DNA of 64,000 nt from Yuukianura sp. NJ FZ-2021 (GCA_046563655.1 CM102285.1:14694001-14758000), one strand, 5' to 3'. Shown: positions 26,111-62,527, counted from the first letter of the stretch. The notes: generated by a model from the sequence alone, not told the origin. Numbers and translations: made by a program.

Positions 26111-29100
26111 ATGGAAGGAGTACCGAGGATCCCGATGCTGTCGTTTTCTATTCGTCGAAGTGCGGATACTCCATCATTCAAAGGAAAACTTCAGAAGGTA
26201 CGTTGATTGTTGACGAAGGTCGAAGGTCATGAAATGTCAGAAAAGTTGCTAATGGTTTCCTTTGTTCTTCAGTTCATTGCCGTTCAGTATGGAGAAAGTC
26301 CAAATTCCTACAGTAAGGAGATTAACGAACTGGAATCGTTGAGGGCTGGAGCAATTCATGCGACGGCTGACTACAGTGGTTGTGCCACTCTCAAAAAGTA
26401 CTACTGCCAACTCCATTTCCTCAAATCACGGTTTCCACTCAACGAAGGGAGTCCAGTAGCCATTAACTTCTCGTGGTACGATATCTTTTCGGATCAGATC
26501 CACTCTTGGTCTGACATTGACTTTGAAGTGTCTTGTATCCTGTTCAATGTCGGAGCACTTCATTCCAAAGTTGCTGGAGCTGATTCTAGAACTACTGTTG
26601 ATGACATGAAGGTTCGTCACAACATTTTCCAGCATTTCTCATTCTCAACATGATGAAATTAACATACTTGATTGTTATTCTAGAACTGTGTAACACATTA
26701 TCAATGTGCTGCTTGGGCATTTGAGCATCTTCGGTCCAACTACGCTAAGTTCTTCACTCCCGATGTGTCTTCGGATCTTCTTGGACTCATGTCCAACATT
26801 TGCCTTGCCCAGGCTCAAGAATGTGTTGTTGAAAAGAGTCTAGTGGACAACCGCCGGTCAGTCATTACTGCTAAACTGCTTCTTCAAATTGTTGACTACT
26901 ATCAATTGGGACTAAAGACTGTTGACCTCTTGCTCAAAGATGCTAGTCACCACTCTGACAGAATGGTCAAAGCAGTACGGGTGAGTTCACTTTTCTAAAA
27001 CATTGAATGCTGATGCTTGTTGAGTACTTGTAAGCATCTTTGTTTTTTCAGAAATGGAAGAAGATGATTGAACTGAAGATTGCTTACTATTCGTCTCTGA
27101 CTTATCTGTACCGTGGTCAGCAAGCAGAAGATCAGAAGCAGTATGGAGAAAGAGTCACTTTCTACAAAGCAGCACAGGAGAAGATTGAACTTGCCTTAAA
27201 AATGTCCAAGACTTTTGAAAAGTCAGACGTAAGAGATGTTGTATTTTTGAAATGTTTGAATTTGTTGGTGTTTTGAGTTCGTTTTTGATGTTTTGAGTTG
27301 GTTTTTGGTTTAGGGTGTCCATGAAACTTTGAATTTTGTGTTGGATGTTGTTGTGGGGAAGGCTACAGCGGCTCAGAAGGACAACGAATTCATCTACCAC
27401 CAAAAAGTGCCAGCGATAGACGCAATTGGAGAAACCATCAAGGGAGTGGCCATAGTCAAACCGATTCCTTTGAAAGTCGATGATCCTTCGGGTGACATTT
27501 TTGCTCGTCTGGTGCCAATGGAAGCCCATGAAGCTTCGTCACTCTATTCAGAGGAAAAGGCAAAACTACTCAGATCCTACGCTGAGAAAATTGAAGACAA
27601 AAACATCGCCCTTCAAAAGTTTCTTCTGGCAATTCAGCTTGAAAGTCTTCAAATTCACGATGCGGAAAACAAATTACCGGAGGTGAGGTTCAGAAATTGA
27701 GAAAAACGAACTCTATTTAGATTTTTTGGGTTAATTTTTTTAATTTTCAGGAATTGGTTGATTGCTGTGCTGCGATGAATGGAAAACCGGATGCTGTTAA
27801 GAAATTGGTCGAATTGATGGGAACGCTTTCTACGATGTTTATGGATGTTGACGAAAAACTGGAAGATATCAAGAAAATATTTGAGGTAAAAGGATTAATT
27901 TCAAAATTTCAAAAATTTTTGAACTTCAACGTTGAAAAATCCCGTCCATTTTTTTTCGATTGACAGACACAAGCTGAGAAAGAAGCCGAACATGGTCGGG
28001 TATTTGGAAAACAGCCTCCATCTAACGTTTTTGTTGAACTTCGTCATGAATTTGAGAAATTTGACAAAGCACATTCACTTGCCAAGGGGTCAAACGAAAC
28101 GCTAAGAGAAGCGATTGGGGCTCACGTTAAGAATCTTCGGATTCTCATGAAACCACTTCCAGAACTTATAAAACTCATTCCAGCTCCACAGCCGATTGGT
28201 AAATATCTTCTTCAAGTTTTCAACTTTTTCAGAAATCTGTTTCAACTTGTTCAAATTTTTTTTAGGTGAGAGTGACAAAGAAGCGGTGGATGAAATGAAG
28301 CGACTGGCTGGTAAGGTTGACGAAATGCGGAAGCAGAGGATATCGCTGGAGAAGGACCTGAGAGAATCTGTGCAGCAGGACGACATTACACAAAGGGTGG
28401 TCGTAACTGCCGACGACGATGTCGAGGCGTTGTTTCGACAAGAGATTGCCAAACACAGTAAAATTGTGAGTGAAATTAATCGATTAATTGATGATTAATT
28501 GGTAATTAATCGATGATTAGTTTGTGATGATTGTTTTCATATATTTTTCAGACCCAAATTATCGACCAGAATTTGCTGGCCCAAGAGAATATCATGAGAG
28601 CTCTGACGGAAGCGAACGCTCGATACGCTGGGACGAGAGAAGTTACGATGAGAGAACTAGCAGAAAGGAATGCATTTGTGCAGAATCTGCTCACTTCGTA
28701 TGAAGCATATGATGAGCTGGTGGAAAAATGTACTGGCGGTATTGACTTCTACAAGAAATTGGAAGAAGGTGTTGGGAAACTGCATGGCAGAGTGAGAGGA
28801 ATTGCTAGAGTTCAGGATGAAGAAAGGGAAGCCAAGTTGAGTGCAATGCAGACAGTCTACGCCAGACAAGTTGCAGGTCCACCGACTACTCCCAGTATCC
28901 CACCGCTTTCGTCCATTCCGTCTCCTGCTGGACCTGTTAGTGGGCATCCCAAATTGAAGGACTACTTGGCAAGTCGCAGGATTGCGGGTGGAGCTCCAGC
29001 ATCAGCTCCAGTATCAAGTTATGCACCTTCGGCTCCCTTTCACGGTTCAGTGCTACCACATTACGGATCCCAAGCTGCGTCAACTACACCGAACATCGGA

Positions 29101-30642
29101 TCGCAAGCTGTGTCATCCACTCCAAACTATGGGTTGCAACCTGCTTCATCTACACCAAACTATGGACCGCAAGCCTCAACAACATCAAATTACGGATCAC
29201 AAGCTGCTTCGGCTACACCATATTACGGATCGCAAGCTGCATCAACTACACCGAATAACGGATCGCAAGCTGTGTCATCCACTCCAAACTATGGATCCCA
29301 ACCTTCTTCAACTATTACACCAAATTATGGATCGCAATCCTCAGCAACATCAAATTACGTATCGCAACCTGCTTCAACTATTACACCAAATTATGGATCG
29401 CAAGCCTCAGCAACAACATCAAATTACGGATCGCAAGCTGCTTCAACTATACCATACTACGGATCGCAAGCTGTTTCAGCTACACCATATTACGGAACGC
29501 AAGGTGCGTCAACTGCACCTAATAACGGATCGCAAGCTATGTCATCCACTCCAAACTATGGATCGCAAGCTGTATCATCCAGTCCAAACTATGGCTCGCA
29601 AGCTGTATCATCCACTCCAAACTATGGATCGCAAGCTGTACCATCCACTCCAAACTATGGATCGCAACCTGCTTCAAATACACCAAACTATGGATCGCAA
29701 GCCTCAGCAACCTCAAATTACGGAGCGCAAGCTGCGTTAACTACACCGAATAACGGATTGCAGGCTGTGTCATCTACTGTAAACTATGGATCGCAAAATG
29801 TTTCATCAACATCGGATTATGGATCGAAAGCTGCTTCAACTGCACCAAACTATGGATCGCAAGCTGCGTCAACTACACCTAATTACGGATCGCAACCTGC
29901 TCCAACTACAAACTATGGATCGCAAGCCTCAACAACATCGAATTACGGATCGCAAGCTGCTTCAGTTACACCAAATTACGTATCGCAGGCTGCGTCAGCT
30001 ACACCGAATAACGGACCGCAAGCTGTTTCATCCACTCCAAGCTATGGAACGCAAAATGTTTCATCAACACCGGATTTCGGATCGCAAGCTGCTTCAACTA
30101 CACCAAACTACGGATCGCAAGCCTCAACATCTTCAAATTACGACTCGCAGTCGCAAACAGCTTCTTTCATCCCAAATTACTACGGATCGCAAGGTTCATC
30201 CACTCCAGCTCATGGTTCACAGTCTGCGTCGTTCATACCAAACTACTACGGAGCACAAGCTACTGCCTCCAACGACTCTGAGCCAACCTCTTTCATCCCA
30301 AATTACTACCGGTCGCAACCTGCTTCAACCACACCAAACTATGGATCACAAGCCTCCACGACATCAAATTACGACACGCAATCAGTTTCTTTCATCCCAA
30401 ATTACTATGGATCGCAAACTTCTTCATCCGCTCCAGCTCATGGTTCGCAGTCTGCGTCGTTCATACCAAATGAGCCAGCCTCCTTCATCCCGAATTACTA
30501 CCGGTCGCAAGCTGCTTCCTTCACTCCAAACTACGCTTCACAAGTTTCTTCATCAACACCAAATTACACATCGCAAGCTCCGTCATCTACACCCAACTAC
30601 GACGCTCACCAGGCCTCAACTACACCAAATTTACTAGGTTGA
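26111..30642 (+). CDS. PTPN23: PTPN23/HD-PTP (myopic)-like BRO1 + ALIX V-domain protein with a long repetitive tail and no PTP domain
   Basis: N-terminal MEGVPRIPML (compare MEAVPRMPM of PTPN23), KKYYCQLHFLKSRFP, ILFNVGALHS, LAQAQECVVEKS, KDNEFIYHQKVP, DIFARLVPMEAHEASSLYSEEKAKLLR, DDIT, QENIMRAL, GIDFYKKL and PKLKDYL. Confidence 0.85.
29057..30630 (+). repeat. Coding tandem repeat, about 33-nt / 11-aa unit (STPNYGSQAxS), more than 40 degenerate copies
   Basis: Repeated acaccaaactatggatcgcaagct in the terminal exon, with the frame open throughout. Confidence 0.92.
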
Positions 30643-55286: not shown

Positions 55287-55721
55287 GTCAATGTTTTGTG
55301 CTAAAAAGGACGTTTTTGCCAAGTAACAAACACTTTTGGAAAGTCAAAACCTGAAACGGAAGTTCAATCGCATCTAATTAATAATCAATCAATTGCAATG
55401 AAAAAGCAGCCTTTCTGTTAAATAGTCGTAGTCTACCATGTTAGTAGTGGAGCTCAACTTTGCAAGTTGGAGAACAAACAAGCCAAAACTGATGATAATA
55501 ACTTTGTTACATTAAAAATTGTTAATTACATTATAATAATGTATTTATTTAATTAATTAACAACTAACCAAAACTGGTTTAAACGCAAAGTCATTAAATC
55601 TGAAAATTTAGCTCTTGTTAAAGGTTATTTTAAAAGCCCTGCTTTGGATTATTGCGCGTAGTAAGTAAAAAGTTAATTTCTCTGCGACTCTTGATTAATT
55701 AACTAACTAATTAACTTTTGT

Positions 55722-58208
55722 TTAGACAGTCTTTGTCTTGTAGAGTCTCACAAAGAAAGTGATGAGTTCTTGGTCATACTTGAAAATCACAAAGAGATTC
55801 ATTCCCAGAATCACCGCACCAATCACAACAGGAACAAATCGTCCGCCAATCACAGTCTGCAATCAAAAAAGTTCAAAATCTGGAAACTTTAACTTTTTGA
55901 TTATTTTTTTAAAATGTTCAAACTTACCATAACTAGAAGGATCCAAAGAAAGGAAAGTAAGTACGAAACTGTGACGGCTATTTTTGGAAACCAGTTTCCA
56001 AATGGATCGACATTTGCATCCTGAAAAACATTTCTGATTGTTTGGACACTCTGGGCCACGCGGAGTCCCATGTTGATGGAATTGGCAATGTAGAAACCCA
56101 AACTTCCGAAGATTCTTGTTGCCACAAAGGAGGAGATGATGAACATTCCAGAGAAAAGGAGAAGTCGACGGTTGAAACTGTAAGATTCAAAATTAGAAAA
56201 TGAAAATTATGAAAATTTTAGTCAAAATTATGAAAATTTTAGTCAAAATTATGTAAATTTTAGTCAAAATTATGAAAATTTTATATTTTTGTGACCTGGC
56301 CATCTCTTCCTGTGTCATGGCTGCCTGGGTAAATGCTTCCGTGACTCCGTTGATGGCCATGATGAAAATGTAGAGACAGTTGCCTTGGAGCAGCATTGTT
56401 CCCGGTCCAGTGTCACTCAGCCCTTTGCCACCGTAGAGAAAAAGTAGAGTGGAACTGTAGGGCAGTCCGAACACAACAATCGTCAGACCAATCAGAAACA
56501 TCAGACGAACCACGTTTCCAAGAACATACGACGCACGTTCAGCCATAGCCTAAAACAAAAGTAAATCAAACAATTAATCAACTAATTAATCACAAAGTTA
56601 ACTTAATTACTTGACATTTGATTTGTTACCTTTTCACGGCGTTTGAACGAGCACCGTCGTTGCAGCGTCTGAGCAAAGTAGGTGTAAGCGTTTTCTTCGA
56701 TGGGCTGGAACACAAATCTGGCTGCCAGCGATCCAAGATTGGACACAAGATCGTAGACTCCTTGTTCCTCAAAAGTCAAAATGTCAAAGAATGTCATCAA
56801 GTATCGCTCCCCTTCAGTCAAAAGTTGTTTCAAAACGCTTTGTTTGTAGAAACTCAGAGTGAAACTGGTCATTTCAGGTGAAACTTCCTACAAAAAAAAA
56901 CATTTTTCACAAGTGTGTAAGTTTTTTTTCAAAAAGTTTGTGATTTCTAAAAATTGTTGCACTTTTTACCAGTTTGCCAGAAGGGAGTAAGTCTTTGACG
57001 GAACGGAAAGGCATTCCACAATCTTTCTTCAAAGTAAAATGAAAGAATGCATAGTAAGTGACGCAAACTAACGCAGCACCACAGACAGAACCAACTGCGT
57101 AGCCCAGCACAGAAAACTGAGGAAAGAAAAGTACTGCTGCACAGAGGAAACAGGAACGCACCACAATCAGCAACGTTTCGCCGACGATCTGAAAAATTTT
57201 TAAAACAGAAGTTTTTTCAAGGTTTTTGACTCGAAAGTTGGATTTGTACGCTATCTGCCAGACCGTAACAAGTGAAATGGTCAAAAACAGTTTTATCAAA
57301 AATTGAAATGGTCAAAAACAATTTGATCAAAAAGTGAAAAAGTCAAAAGGAAAAAATATCGTTACAAATAGTGAGACAGGTTTGGTTAGACGAGGCCTTG
57401 CTTATGTTTGATCTTTTCACCTTAAAACTTTTTCAGTTTTCGACTAATTTTTTTTCGACCATATTACGTGTTGAACCTACCCGAAGTCTGTAGTACAGAA
57501 AATACTTGGCAATGATGTATGGTACTTCGGTAATTGAGTCCAGAATGGTGGCCAAGCATATGAGACCGACTGACAGTCGATACTGCGATGCCAGTTGATC
57601 GTCTCCAGGTTGTGACAACACATAGCACCAAACCGGTCCAAGTAAAACCGACCACAACACCGTATTCGGTACTCTGGAATCAAAAATGTGTCAAAATTTT
57701 TGAAAAATTCAGAAATGAATCAAAATTTTTGAAAATTTCAAACTCACGCAAACCAGATGAGATTAATAGTAGCTGCCCATGATTCTTTTGAAGTGTGGTT
57801 GACACGATGTGATGCTCTTCTGAAGGGCTCTCGACTCAAGAACATAATCGACGAGTACAGGAGGAACAAGCGGACATTGCAAATTCCAAGCACATCGTGA
57901 CTCACGTATCGCAAAATAAATGCATTTAGACCAAAAGTAAACACCCGAATGAACACCTTCAAAGTAATTAAAATGATCAATTATTAAGATTAATCAAGAT
58001 TAGCAATTAGTTTAAGTTAATTAACTCACTTGGAAGACAATATTGAAAGAGGCACTGCGGACACTTCCCGAGAGGAGATCCGCTTCTTGTGTCGGAGGTT
58101 GCAAAACTACTGGACGTTTTCTGGGCGTGTCAGTGATCATGTCATCTTCATCTGACGAATCAAGCAAATCGGCGTCCAGCACATCAGGAGTTACTGAACG
58201 CCGTCCAT
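55722..58208 (-). CDS. RFT1: RFT1 (Man5GlcNAc2-PP-dolichol translocation protein); the first exon is open from its splice acceptor at 58208, and the first in-frame ATG is at 58140
   Basis: [84 protein letters not shown] and [10 protein letters not shown]. The C-terminal KTKTV* is a KxKxx ER-retrieval motif. Confidence 0.92.
56195..56285. repeat. Intronic 21-bp tandem repeat (aaaattatgaaaattttagtc), about 4 copies
   Basis: Direct tandem copies. They produce the spurious IFIILTK repeat in the ORF track. Confidence 0.85.
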
Positions 58209-58446
58209 CTAATTTACATAAAATTTTGAAACAAGATTTTGAAAAAAATTAGGTTTTTCAATTTGGTGAAATGTAAATAAGTGAAGTGTAGTAGTTTATT
58301 GCCAGATCTTAAATTAAATTAATTGCAGATACTAAACTAGAACGTAAGAGTAACGATATGGATAGCGCTGGAAGAATGCTGGATGCTGGAACAGCATTTG
58401 ATGCTTCTCAAGTATTGTTGCATGGTGGTGATACAAAGTTAAGGTT

Positions 58447-59142
58447 TCACGGAAGATGGGATTTAAAAATGCCCAAGGTGAAGTTTCCCCGTTTTTGAAC
58501 CAAACAGTATCTGCAAAACCAATGAGGCAAACAATTATCTAATTGATTTAACTTTTTAACTGTTGTTGAAAGTTAAAATGTTGAACTAACCCTTGATCAG
58601 ATTCCAATCGAACAATTGGGATTGCAGTACTGTTTGGCTCAAGTTTTGTTGCCTGATCTGCAATGTTACGAATAGCTCCCGCTTGATCGGGATGCCCAAC
58701 ACCACGAGCTTAACAAACAATACAAACAGCTACATTTAGCAATACTTTGACAAAACTAAACATCACATTCACACCCATTCCAGCATTCAGCATTGGGTTA
58801 GGTTCTGGCAGTTTCTAAGCTGAAGTTCACGCAGATTAGCAAACTGAAGTTCGAAATCATTTTTCAGTTTTAATAGTCGATTAACACTAATTGTACAAGT
58901 GTGACGACAGTAATCGATTACATTTACGAAGATTAGCTTACCAGAAAGGCACAGGCCACGTTGATCTGCACACACGATTCCAATTACTCCGGGTTTTCCC
59001 ATTCTGTGTACACAAAATTCATAAAGATCAATGATTAGTTGACTTAATTAATATTTTCAGTGCTATTTGAACGATTCATGGTCCACTAAATTCCTGATTA
59101 CACTCACATAGCATCGAACTTGTCTTCTAATTCCCTTTCCAT
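58447..59142 (-). CDS. LAMTOR5: Ragulator complex subunit LAMTOR5 (HBXIP), 92 aa, exons 59142-59108, 59003-58942, 58708-58591, 58510-58447
   Basis: Spliced translation MERELEDKFDAIMGKPGVIGIVCADQRGLCLSARGVGHPDQAGAIRNIADQATKLEPNSTAIPIVRLESDQGYCLVQKRGNFTLGIFKSHLP*. AATAAA on the minus strand at 58300-58295. Confidence 0.92.
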
Positions 59143-59701
59143 TGTTACAGCTGTTTTACCGTAAAACTTTTACGGACGAGAAACCTTGGTCGATACGACC
59201 TTCTAGTACTATTGCGAAATGTCACCAACAGACAGGAAGTAAAGTAATTGAGTTCTTTCAGGCCAAACCAACCATTTAAGGTGAAGGTACTCGATTAATT
59301 AATTGATTGATTGACGAAAACATAAAGATAAAAATCAGCAACACAATCAGCTGACAAACACCGTCGTTGGTTATTTTTATTTAAAAAAAAAGTGTTTGTT
59401 TACCCGTGTTTTATTAAAGAAAGCGCGGGAACTTGCAAAATTCAAATTTCAAAAATTCTTTGACATTGGGAATTTCAAAAATTTAAAAACTCAACACTGA
59501 AAAACTTGTTTTTATGAAAAGAAAACGATCTGCTTCCTGATCAGTCAGTGGTCAAACTTTTAGTCAGGACAGCGTTGTTTGTCGGACTGAATACTAATTA
59601 AAGACAGATTTTGAATATAATACGTAAGTTTCGACAATGAAATGGTCTGAATCATCTAACAAATATCCTTTTCTTAAAAAATTTTTCTTTAGAATTTCGA
59701 C

Positions 59702-62527
59702 ATGGCGTCCAGACGTATGAAAATGAAAGTTGCTGTGAATGTTGGCCGAAGTGGAGCTGCTGGAAGATCTAGCAGTGGTGGACCTTCCTCGGGAAGCGAC
59801 AGGCCACGTCCAAGTACCCCTGTAGGGACAAGCAACGATGGTTGCAGTAACGATTCTATGCTGGCCATTCCGTCTGACAGCACTTCTATGATAGCTCCTC
59901 GTTCACCTACTAAGCATTTTTCATCACTACACTTCCCTTCGTCACCTACTAAGAGACATGCTTACTCAATTGAATCCCCGACACCCCGAACTTTATCGGA
60001 ATCTGAAGCAGAAGAGGATTCTAGTGCTTTCCAAGAGGAAGATGAGTCTGCCTTTTGCCTCGTTGCAGTGTCGCCTCTAGATTCTGAAATTGCTAGGTAA
60101 ATACAAAATTGTAAAATTAAACTTAAGAAGGATCTCATCGTTTCATTTTAAACGTTTTTTAAACGTTTTTAGTCCGGCAGCCTCCAGATCTTCATCTCCC
60201 GTCAAACACGGACCAAGCACTACTTGCACCACGGTGGCTTTAATTGACCAGTTCAGAAGAGGACCAGGAACAGGGCCACCGATTAATCCTTCCACCAGTT
60301 CCAACATACTGAACAACATCCAGAAGGAAATTGGTCCAGTTCATGTCAGTCACGTTGCAAGTAATGACACTCTTCGTCAACGACTTCAAAAGGGAACGGG
60401 ATCTGTTAATTCAAAGTACGCAGTGCTCAGGAAAGAGTTTATGGCTACAACGAAAAACAAAACTCCAGACAAGAAGGACCTCACTATACTCCATTTCACT
60501 TTCTGGAATCCACCGTAAGCCTGATATTTTTCAAAAATTTTATCGTTTTCGTAAAGTTTTGATTCGAAAACGTTTTTTAGGGGTGACGATGAGCCGAAAA
60601 CGTCGGATGTGGATACTTTGTACGAAGGAATTGACACTTCTACTATGAGAGTTGCTAGATTCCATACTCCCGCTAGTCCTCCACCAATCGTTGTGGATCT
60701 CGAGGAAGAACCACCGAAATCTATTGGACCCCGTGTCAAAGTTGGTCCTGACGGGGAGCTGATCATCGATGAACAAAGTTTGGTAAGTTTGTCGAAATTA
60801 ATCTTTCCGAAATTAGTCTTTCCGAAACTATGATGTTGACTTTTTTTCTTGTTTCACTGCAGGTTGTGGAAACGAGTGAAAGCATCAGAGCAAAAAAGCA
60901 ACTGGAAGACATGGAGACTGTGATGGCTGCGGGGTCTGGATACTACAGACACAAAAGATTTCCAAAACGAGGTTACGACTGGACAGTTAAAGGTAATTTT
61001 TCGAAAAAATTTCAAAAATTCTGAAAACATTTCCGTTTTGACTTTTTTCAATTTGGTTTAATTTTGGTTTTTAGAAACTGTCCGATTTTTCAAGGCTCTG
61101 ACGATGTGTGGCACTGATTTTTCCATGATGTCTCATCTTTTTCCAAATCGCAGTAGAGCCGAACTCAAAGCCAAATTTAAGCGTGAAGATCGCAAAAATT
61201 CTCAACTTGTGAGCCAAGCCTTGGCTTTTCAAACTTTTGATCCAATGGAGCCCTTGACCGATTCGGAAGAATCCGATGACGAAGATGCTCCTCCCAGAAA
61301 ACGCCGATTTCAATCAAATCATGCAAGACTCCGTACTTCTAGTGAAATCAAGAAAGTAGAGGGCGTTCCAAGCTCAGACACAGCTCAACCACTCACAAGA
61401 AAGAGCGATGATGTGATCTCAGATACTGCCAGTAGTCCTCAAGATACTGCCAGTACCCCTCTTGCCATTGAATATTATCCAACTAAAGTCAAAACAGAAA
61501 AGAAATCAGCTAAACTTTTGAAGAAAAAGGGAATCAAGTTAGAAAAAGTTTCAAATCTGCCGGAATTTGTCCCTGGAAGGCCAATGGGCCTTGGGGATTG
61601 TACCAAAATTAAGAAACTGTTCAAAAAAGACAAGAAGGAGAAGTTGGCTAATAAGACGCTGGACGCTGATTCGTCAACTGAGTAAGGCTACGAGTTCGAT
61701 TCAACCTTGATTTTAAAAATTCTTAATTTTTCTGGATTCTTTATTTCAGAAATCAAGATGAAGTCTCAGACAAAAGGAAACGTAAAACGACAAAGGCTGA
61801 AAAGAAGCTAAAATCGGAAAACCCTCAGAAAAAGCCTAAAAATGAAAAGAAGAAAGCTGGAAAACGAACATCTAAAACTGAAGAAGATACGGAAGCGATT
61901 TCGAATTCTGTTGAGCAAGAGCCCATCGCTGATTCGTCGCTTGAAGTTTCTAGTCCAGTTGTGAATGAAAATACTCGAGAAGCATCTCCAGATCCGAGAT
62001 TAGCCTTGCTTCGATTCGATGCTGATGACCCCTTGGGGTTGAAAGTAGTTCAAGGTCAAGGACAGGAAGAGGTCACTGCTCCAGCTCCAGGTCAGAATCA
62101 AGACGCCACCATTTCAGAAATCGCTGAAACTTCGAGTTGCAGCGAAGATGCATTGACAATTGACTTACCAGCGACATCCAACACAATCGAACTCGAAATC
62201 GAATCTGATTCGCTGAAACAGGCCCCGCCTCCTGCTGAAGCTCCGCCTCCCAAAGAGCGAAAATCAGTCAAAGTCAAAGTAAAACCAAGGATTCCTCGAG
62301 TTCCGGGTGGTGGAGGTTAGAAATTCTAAGAATTTTGCGAAATTTTTAAAAACTTTTGTTAAATTTTTTTTTTAAGTTGTGAATAATTTATTTAACTTTT
62401 TTTTATATAATGCTTGTGCTTTCATAAATTTAAAAGATTTTTGTCATTTGTAGGCCCTTTGCCGCGTGGTGCTGGTGACAGTCAAGTGCAAGGAGTTGAT
62501 GAAATAGAAATTGAAATTTCCTGTTGA
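59702..62527 (+). CDS. BDP1: TFIIIB component B'' (BDP1), SANT-like domain
   Basis: GPRVKVGPDGELIIDEQSLVV and WTVK|ETVRFFKALTMCGTDFSMMSHLFPNRSRAELKAKFKREDRKN. The inferred last exon ends EIEISC* at 62527. Confidence 0.85.

What the first reader, a model, noticed from the sequence alone, without database searches (positions are those of the whole stretch)
58030..59142. RFT1 appears to borrow the promoter and first two exons of LAMTOR5 (shared-exon or bicistronic locus)
Seen: LAMTOR5 ends at 58447 with AATAAA at 58300-58295. Only about 85 nt further on is a typical acceptor (cctaat branch site, T-rich tract, AG at 58210-58209) opening the first RFT1 exon, leaving almost no room for a separate promoter plus upstream exon. 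That exon is open from its first base in phase 1 and encodes 23 coding-like residues ([23 protein letters not shown]) before the first in-frame ATG. LAMTOR5 exon 2 ends in phase 1 (TCT G|gtaagc, 58942), so a 58942-to-58208 splice gives an in-frame protein MERELEDKFDAIMGKPGVIGIVCADQRGLCLS-D-GRRS...RFT1. Exons 1 and 3 end in phase 2 and would hit a stop. Inference: one transcription unit makes either Ragulator LAMTOR5 or an RFT1 carrying the first 32 aa of LAMTOR5, through a splicing versus polyadenylation choice, coupling mTORC1 signalling and N-glycan precursor synthesis. Spliced-leader trans-splicing of an operon-like transcript is an alternative explanation.
Basis: partly seen in the sequence, partly recalled or inferred. 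Interest (0 to 1): 0.72.

Follow-up and report, generated by a model that had tools for sequence, protein, structure and literature searches.

The report
Springtail RFT1 borrows LAMTOR5's first exons
In this springtail the glycosylation gene RFT1 begins with a splice acceptor just behind the nutrient-signalling gene LAMTOR5 and likely takes its promoter, start codon and first 32 amino acids from it, a join also found in the predicted proteins of two distant springtails and resembling a known rare gene-sharing arrangement in insects.

Summary
The genome is a springtail's. The first RFT1 exon opens at an acceptor 84 nt behind LAMTOR5's poly(A) signal. Its 22 codons before the first in-frame ATG are conserved coding sequence, and four out-of-frame ATGs precede that ATG, so an upstream exon very probably supplies the start. 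LAMTOR5 exon 2 has the best-scoring donor of the region and the right phase. The public RFT1 models of Orchesella cincta and O. dallaii (about 55% identical to this RFT1) begin with LAMTOR5 residues 1-32 at the same donor position; Allacma fusca and one unnamed record start independently. No junction read could be examined, and the Orchesella proteins are predictions. A real rival exists: a weak ATG-G|GT mini-exon inside LAMTOR5 intron 2. Best reading (0.72): one unit making LAMTOR5 or RFT1 by splicing versus polyadenylation, as with Su(var)3-9/eIF2gamma. Functional mTORC1-glycosylation coupling and spliced-leader trans-splicing are unsupported; the shared head is a third of a fold and probably a passenger. 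A new, apparently unpublished member of a known kind, and a possible marker for springtail phylogeny.

The parts
59108..59142 (-). LAMTOR5 coding exon 1 (35 nt, ends in phase 2); likely also first coding exon of RFT1; ATG in strong context (A at -3, G at +4)
   Evidence: matches residues 1-12 of P0001/P0002
58942..59003 (-). LAMTOR5 exon 2 (62 nt, ends in phase 1); its donor at 58941 is the predicted branch point of the choice
   Evidence: Pfam LAMTOR5 13-32; tblastn of P0001/P0002 residues 13-32; top-ranked of 98 GT sites in 59720-58235
58709..58941 (-). LAMTOR5 intron 2 (233 nt, the longest of its three)
58775..58847 (-). Rival: possible own RFT1 first exon nested in intron 2 (TCAGTT at 58847, in-frame ATGs at 58793 and 58778, weak phase-1 donor at 58774)
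   Evidence: no transcript evidence
58591..58708 (-). LAMTOR5 exon 3 (118 nt, phase 2), LAMTOR5-specific
   Evidence: Pfam LAMTOR5 34-72; matches spliced mRNA L005
58447..58510 (-). LAMTOR5 last coding exon with TGA, LAMTOR5-specific
58295..58300 (-). AATAAA, predicted LAMTOR5 poly(A) signal; the only one between the LAMTOR5 ATG and the RFT1 acceptor
58209..58253 (-). Branch-like CCTAAT, T-rich tract and AG of the RFT1 acceptor; the T run at 58248-58242 is also where a downstream poly(A) element would lie (inferred)
58030..58208 (-). First RFT1-specific exon (179 nt, starts in phase 1): 22 conserved codons, four out-of-frame ATGs (58208, 58184, 58151, 58145), first in-frame ATG 58140
55722..57956 (-). 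Remaining seven RFT1 exons: 57956-57748, 57673-57481, 57188-56970, 56887-56630, 56549-56296, 56177-55928, 55856-55722 (stop)
59143..59701 (.). Region between the LAMTOR5 ATG and the divergent BDP1-like gene (ATG 59702, + strand); presumed shared promoter, start sites not mapped
   Evidence: Myb_DNA-bind_7 hit at 61062-61682; the name BDP1 is recalled

Best explanation
LAMTOR5 and RFT1 lie head to tail, and one promoter likely drives a single pre-mRNA in which the LAMTOR5 exon-2 donor would splice either to exon 3, giving LAMTOR5 (92 aa) polyadenylated behind 58300, or across 733 nt to the acceptor at 58208, giving a predicted 597-aa RFT1 whose first 32 residues are those of LAMTOR5 and are probably a passenger. 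Shown: exon structure, phases, lack of a usable start in the RFT1 exon, conservation of its pre-Met codons, single copy of each gene, the same donor position in two Orchesella gene models. Inferred: that the splice is made in this species; that cleavage behind 58300 competes with use of the weak RFT1 acceptor, whose branch site and T tract lie 40-50 nt behind the signal, so that LAMTOR5 is the major and RFT1 the minor product; that the head has no function of its own; that the arrangement arose by capture of an existing phase-1 donor.
For: (1) 2 of the 5 RFT1 relatives found carry PF16672 as well: ODN00220.1 of O. cincta and CAL8102717.1 of O. dallaii begin with 32 LAMTOR5 residues, then Asp, then the RFT1 exon; this forces the same tandem gene order in both. 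Their heads are identical to each other and 31 of 32 identical to a free full-length LAMTOR5 from an unnamed record (P0017). The two models differ by 8 residues behind the junction, so one is not a copy of the other; both pipelines used RNA-seq evidence (PMC4987106, PMC12693562, passages read). (2) This RFT1 is 55-58% identical to all five relatives, no closer to Orchesella than to Allacma, so the order has lasted across a deep split. (3) Pre-Met codons are conserved and coding-like only in the RFT1 frame (+13.0 against -9.6 and +4.4; the 66 nt upstream score -15 to -20 in all frames). (4) Four out-of-frame ATGs precede Met 58140, the last three ending in a stop that overlaps it; in 4 of 4 members of an unnamed springtail-like cluster the matching exon has Ile there and no Met behind the junction position. 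(5) Donor 58941 ranks first of 98 GT sites; no GT with 6 or more of 9 consensus matches lies between the exon-3 donor and the acceptor. (6) Each gene is single copy. (7) A spliced, polyadenylated full LAMTOR5 mRNA exists in another springtail-like record (L005). (8) Human Rft1 has a cytoplasmic N-terminus and works with an N-terminal fluorescent tag (10.1101/2024.04.03.587922, passages).
Against: No junction read was seen. Allacma fusca RFT1 and the unnamed record P0005 start with their own Met-Asp and no LAMTOR5 sequence, and the Allacma genes lie on different contigs (20,283 and 3,724 nt); the Folsomia model starts at the internal Met. No fused protein appeared among 6 hits of the representative search or 18 hits of the LAMTOR5 search of 11-228 aa. 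An ATG-G|GT lies in LAMTOR5 intron 2 where 0.08 are expected by chance in 734 nt. The splice-site model is noisy: it recovered 0 of the 8 known short introns of this locus.
Confidence: 0.72

Rival explanations
1. RFT1 has its own promoter nested in LAMTOR5 intron 2; a short first exon ending ATG-G splices from 58775 to 58208 and gives an RFT1 that starts Met-Asp like those of Allacma and P0005. The genes overlap but share no exon (or this is a second isoform beside the shared one).
For: The only ATGGGT in 59720-58235 is at 58778, in good context, in phase 1; 0.08 expected in 734 nt; TCAGTT (initiator-like, recalled consensus) at 58847; intron 2 is 233 nt against 104 and 80. Allacma reads M-D-Q-R-R-S where this exon reads D-G-R-R-S.
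Against: Donor matches 5 of 9 consensus positions and scores -0.6 bits, below all ten homology-supported donors (6-8 of 9; -0.13 to 3.53 bits), though only slightly below the weakest; its hexamer is 1 of 304 training picks against 10 for the exon-2 hexamer. The motif was sought after seeing the Allacma start. TCAGTT is expected 0.4 times in 734 nt. It must still skip two acceptors and the poly(A) site. Both Orchesella models use LAMTOR5 exons instead.
Confidence: 0.17
2. RFT1 is translated from the internal Met at 58140, either from a read-through dicistronic mRNA holding all of LAMTOR5 or from a transcript with a non-coding first exon inside LAMTOR5.
For: Met 58140 aligns with a Met in both Orchesella, Folsomia and P0007; the Folsomia model starts there. 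Dicistronic units are a known class in flies (PMC4528330, section 8) and earlier unchecked notes report several in this genome.
Against: Four out-of-frame ATGs come first; the codons before Met 58140 are conserved as protein; Allacma, P0005 and the P0006 cluster have Ile at this position; no good donor in the 3' UTR.
Confidence: 0.05
3. LAMTOR5 exon 1 splices to 58208 and RFT1 is translated from the out-of-frame ATG at 59114, which this join places in frame, by leaky scanning.
For: ATG 59114 lies 7 nt before the exon-1 donor in phase 1 with no stop.
Against: The LAMTOR5 ATG upstream has a strong context and ATG 59114 a weak one; the Orchesella models include exon 2.
Confidence: 0.03
4. Operon-like transcript resolved by spliced-leader trans-splicing at 58208.
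For: Short spacing of poly(A) signal and acceptor, as in nematode operons (recalled).
Against: The first ATG after the acceptor begins at its first base and opens a 5-codon out-of-frame ORF; pre-Met codons are conserved; neighbouring genes show ordinary 5' UTR donors; one literature search found no report of a spliced leader in Collembola (1 paper listed, on a nematode).
Confidence: 0.02

Closest known systems
Su(var)3-9 / eIF2gamma unit of true insects (Krauss et al. 2006, PMC1435931; abstract, sections 6 and 8 read)
   Same: Two unrelated, conserved single-copy genes; shared promoter, first exons and N-terminus taken from one partner; the shared part is not a closed domain; choice by alternative splicing with a weak acceptor for the minor product; patchy distribution usable as a phylogenetic character; read by the authors as an accident.
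   Different: There the guest is one large exon inside an intron of the host, 79-84 residues are shared and cDNA evidence exists. Here the guest is an 8-exon gene wholly behind the host's poly(A) signal, 32 residues are shared, and the evidence is genomic and gene-model only. That fusion is absent from the springtail Allacma.
FlyBase class 'genes with CDS overlap' (10 pairs and one triplet in D. melanogaster; PMC4528330, section 8 read)
   Same: Functionally distinct genes that share promoter, first exon and translation start in one frame; some also have isoforms from their own promoters, which would fit the intron-2 rival as a second isoform.
   Different: LAMTOR5/RFT1 is not named in the section read (its File S2 list was not opened); transcript support is missing here.
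Splicing-versus-polyadenylation switches such as immunoglobulin mu secreted/membrane and calcitonin/CGRP (recalled, no call)
   Same: An internal poly(A) site competes with splicing to a downstream acceptor.
   Different: Those are regulated isoform switches within one gene; no regulation is shown here and the products are unrelated proteins.

Membership tests
Genes with shared N-terminal coding exons (FlyBase CDS-overlap class; Su(var)3-9/eIF2gamma type) | Two functionally and evolutionarily distinct genes, each the genome's only orthologue | tested here: met
   PF16672 and PF04506; all 4 Rft-1 matches at this locus; the second of 2 PF16672 matches is a different roadblock-type gene
Genes with shared N-terminal coding exons (FlyBase CDS-overlap class; Su(var)3-9/eIF2gamma type) | Shared exons are read in the same frame into both products | tested here: met
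   Exon 2 joined to 58708 or 58208 is open in both cases; same junction position in P0001, P0002. This tests frame, not use.
Genes with shared N-terminal coding exons (FlyBase CDS-overlap class; Su(var)3-9/eIF2gamma type) | Transcripts of both genes really begin with the same exons and start codon | tested here: inconclusive
   Two RNA-seq-informed gene models say so; no reads or fused transcript contig were obtained
Genes with shared N-terminal coding exons (FlyBase CDS-overlap class; Su(var)3-9/eIF2gamma type) | No isoform holds the full characteristic domains of both | tested here: met
   P0001 and P0002 match only positions 1-41 and 1-35 of the 88 of PF16672; the head covers helix 1, strand 1 and most of strand 2
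Genes with shared N-terminal coding exons (FlyBase CDS-overlap class; Su(var)3-9/eIF2gamma type) | Products chosen by alternative RNA processing from one promoter | not testable with these tools
   Needs 5'-end mapping and long reads
Dicistronic mRNA (two separate ORFs on one mRNA) | The second ORF has its own usable start codon | tested here: not met
   Conserved coding sequence runs 22 codons upstream of the first in-frame ATG, which follows four out-of-frame ATGs
Spliced-leader operon | A spliced-leader RNA gene in the genome | tested here: inconclusive
   Rfam SL1 gave no match, but no control genome rang either; a springtail leader would not be in Rfam
Spliced-leader operon | First ATG behind the trans-splice acceptor opens the gene | tested here: not met
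   ATG at 58208 opens a 5-codon out-of-frame ORF

The most novel reading that the evidence does not exclude
A fusion as old as the split of springtail orders has been kept because it does something: the LAMTOR5 head, which holds 7 of the 13 human residues positions listed as contacting LAMTOR1, sits on the cytoplasmic tail of RFT1 and links the ER scramblase candidate to Ragulator, or a nutrient-regulated splicing-versus-poly(A) switch trades Ragulator subunit for glycosylation capacity.
Probability: 0.07. Interest if true: 0.8.

Novelty: new member of a known kind. Interest (0 to 1): 0.5.

Why it matters
Units in which two essential, unrelated genes share coding exons are rare (11 cases in the FlyBase review) and only one is well studied; this would be a second deep arthropod case, with a different anatomy (guest behind the host's poly(A) site). 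It has practical weight: annotation of springtail genomes loses either LAMTOR5 or the true RFT1 start, and RNAi or editing of the first two exons would hit both genes. Present in this lineage and Orchesella and apparently absent in Allacma, it is a candidate rare genomic change for the unresolved relations among the four springtail orders (10.64898/2026.07.05.736609, abstract read); it can be scored in existing assemblies. It would matter much more if the head had a function, which nothing here shows.

Tried and rejected
Sequencing runs: no RNA holder was listed for 55600-59300, so no reads were laid; this is no evidence either way. Homologue search with the first RFT1 exon alone: 0 of 88 candidates. 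Rfam scan of the window: 0 matches; SL1 in the genome: none, control silent. Metagenome scan with a LAMTOR5 alignment: 1 of 90 stretches, a spliced mRNA, no genomic contig for gene order. AlphaFold2 of the O. dallaii fused model: mean pLDDT 43, uninformative. ESM Atlas on its first 110 residues: best score 0.80, chance level. Two first attempts at a genome-trained donor model failed on known donors or had 9 introns only and were discarded; the third is reported as noisy. CpG and a GCTGA motif count along the locus did not mark promoters. The bacterial promoter scan does not apply. Second PF16672 match on contig C7 rejected as a LAMTOR5 paralogue or retrocopy on reading its sequence. Idea of a weak exon-3 acceptor favouring skipping rejected: it scores 4.41 bits. 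Idea of a one-base assembly error that would put ATG 58208 in frame rejected: the present frame already matches Allacma's residues behind Met-Asp. The trees do not place this species in an order. No complex prediction was run. Earlier findings by place, words and sequence held nothing on this pair.

Full report
Source and anatomy. The window lies on contig C3 of a 98.7-Mb genome; its RFT1 has springtail proteins as nearest relatives (70-75% over exon 2), so the organism is a collembolan. I did not determine the species. On the minus strand LAMTOR5 has four coding exons (35, 62, 118, 64 nt; phases 2, 1, 2) giving 92 aa; Pfam confirms exons 2 and 3. AATAAA follows 146 nt after the stop, and 84 nt later an AG opens a 179-nt exon that is open only in phase 1 and leads into seven further RFT1 exons. 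All four Rft-1 matches of the genome are here; of two LAMTOR5-family matches the second is another roadblock-type gene. From memory, human LAMTOR5 has coding exons of 35, 62, 118 and 61 nt; if so the phase-1 intron is ancestral and no adaptation to RFT1 (recalled, not checked).

RFT1 needs an upstream start. The 22 codons before Met 58140 score 153 against the matching segments of five relatives (P0002, P0004-P0007; P0001, P0003 and three near-duplicates of P0006 were left out), against 100 +/- 14 for shuffles (14 of 5000 reach it) and 0 of 16,356 sampled genomic 22-mers. A codon model trained on 690 kb of this genome scores them +13.0 in the RFT1 frame, as high as the post-Met part, and the 66 nt upstream negative in all frames. 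Four out-of-frame ATGs precede Met 58140. In Allacma, P0005 and the four members of the P0006 cluster the matching residue is Ile. The acceptor has a 97-nt AG-free run (0.9% of 7,058 AGs) but is the weakest of 11 in the locus. Neighbouring tandem genes leave about 300 nt (GRIM-19 to RRM gene) and 630 nt (KH to BRO1 gene) between the last AATAAA and the next ATG. With introns of 71 nt or more in this locus, any RFT1 first exon must lie inside the LAMTOR5 transcript.

Which exon supplies it. Of 98 GT sites between 59720 and 58235, the exon-2 donor ranks first (3.53 bits; the model is noisy and recovered 0 of 8 known short introns here). Phase-1 donors with an upstream in-frame ATG are few: exon 2; exon 1 through an out-of-frame ATG; and weak sites at 59101, 58830, 58774 and 58354. 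The site at 58774 deserves weight: it follows ATG-G directly, would give a Met-Asp start like Allacma's, occurs where 0.08 are expected, and lies in the longest LAMTOR5 intron behind a TCAGTT. Its donor is weaker than all ten homology-supported donors.

Comparative evidence. Five RFT1 relatives passed among 11 candidates. Two, from Orchesella cincta and O. dallaii, begin with LAMTOR5 residues 1-32 followed by Asp and the RFT1 exon, which is the junction predicted here. This proves the same tandem order in Orchesella, whose RFT1 is only 55-56% identical to this one; Allacma and Folsomia are 56 and 58%. The annotations used different pipelines with RNA-seq evidence (MAKER2, PMC4987106; Funannotate, PMC12693562; passages read) and differ by 8 residues behind the junction. 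That both dropped LAMTOR5 exons 3-4 in favour of this join, though an internal Met was available, suggests junction evidence (inference). Against this, they are models with visible faults. Allacma fusca and the unnamed record P0005 (584 aa on a 1,892-nt contig, hence probably a transcript) start with their own Met-Asp; the Allacma genes are on different contigs. The Folsomia model is uninformative. No fused fragment turned up in the representative search (6 hits; full-length fusions would be hidden in the 50% cluster of P0004) or the LAMTOR5 search (18 of 255). Free full-length LAMTOR5 exists in related records, one as a spliced mRNA with a poly(A)-like run. No RNA run was listed.

Mechanism. 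Most likely one pre-mRNA: exon 2 splices to exon 3 (strong acceptor, 233 nt) and the RNA is cleaved behind 58300, or cleavage is missed and exon 2 splices 733 nt to the weak RFT1 acceptor. The branch-like site and T run lie 40-50 nt behind the poly(A) signal, where a downstream cleavage element is expected, so the two events probably compete (inferred). LAMTOR5 would be the major product. This is the pattern described for Su(var)3-9 'parasitizing' eIF2gamma expression through a weak acceptor (PMC1435931, section 8). The shared head is helix 1, strand 1 and most of strand 2 of the roadblock fold (model of P0017, pLDDT 67; human LAMTOR5 aligns without gaps). It lacks helix 2 and strands 3-4, which pair with LAMTOR4, though it holds 7 of 13 listed LAMTOR1 contact positions (PMC5742854, passages). 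Human Rft1 has a cytoplasmic N-terminus that tolerates a large tag (10.1101/2024.04.03.587922, passages). A harmless passenger is the simplest reading; coupling beyond a shared promoter is not shown.

Known and new. It works like the Su(var)3-9/eIF2gamma unit and fits FlyBase's class of genes with CDS overlap (PMC4528330, section 8); the decisive membership feature, shared transcripts, is inconclusive. Searches for LAMTOR5 with RFT1 and for HBXIP with RFT1 found 0 papers each; the library lacks most subscription journals, and supplements (including FlyBase File S2) were not searched. A search for spliced leaders with Collembola listed one unrelated paper; a review passage says most arthropod-type candidates were unproven (PMC3795323, one passage). 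Relations among springtail orders are unresolved (10.64898/2026.07.05.736609, abstract), which gives the presence/absence pattern some value. Earlier notes on this genome mention other tight two-gene units (unchecked).

Verdict. Observation confirmed; shared-exon unit likely (0.72), nested own first exon the main rival (0.17); functional coupling unsupported (0.07). New member of a known kind; interest 0.5.

Noticed in passing
window 58206-58080 (minus); P0001-P0007: Springtail RFT1 proteins carry a roughly 45-residue basic, then Ser/acidic, then Ser-Pro-Lys-Lys type extension ahead of the Pfam Rft-1 domain (the domain starts at residue 49-72 in four of five); possible kinase sites (inferred).
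   Followed up: partly
window 59143-59701: LAMTOR5 and a BDP1-like gene are divergent with start codons 560 nt apart; the BDP1-like gene appears to have a 5' UTR intron. If the shared-exon reading holds, three genes depend on this stretch.
   Followed up: no
L002:2842-3204 (G000:C7 near 9562464-9562700, minus): Second PF16672 match reads like a dynein light chain of the roadblock family (identity recalled, not scanned), convergent with a ribose-5-phosphate-isomerase-like ORF.
   Followed up: partly
P0010, P0014, P0015: A group of unnamed springtail-like LAMTOR5 proteins has a roughly 40-residue Ser/Thr/Asn-rich insertion between helix 2 and strand 3.
   Followed up: no
P0002, P0003, P0004: Public springtail RFT1 models look faulty: O. 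dallaii and A. fusca end early, F. candida lacks two internal stretches. No full-length LAMTOR5 named for Orchesella or Folsomia appeared among the 18 hits.
   Followed up: no
L005:735-1291: Behind the poly(A)-like run the contig continues with unrelated sequence that looks like large-subunit rRNA: probably an assembly chimera.
   Followed up: no
P0006, P0011, P0012, P0013: The residues just ahead of the conserved exon (Ala-Val or Thr-Val) are compatible with a CAG acceptor in phase 1 at the position homologous to 58208; the DNA could not be fetched, and an own Met a few codons upstream is not excluded for these records.
   Followed up: partly
window 28531-30639 (+): Long exon of a BRO1/ALIX-domain gene holds a repeat that matches the Spt5 C-terminal nonapeptide model.
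   Followed up: no
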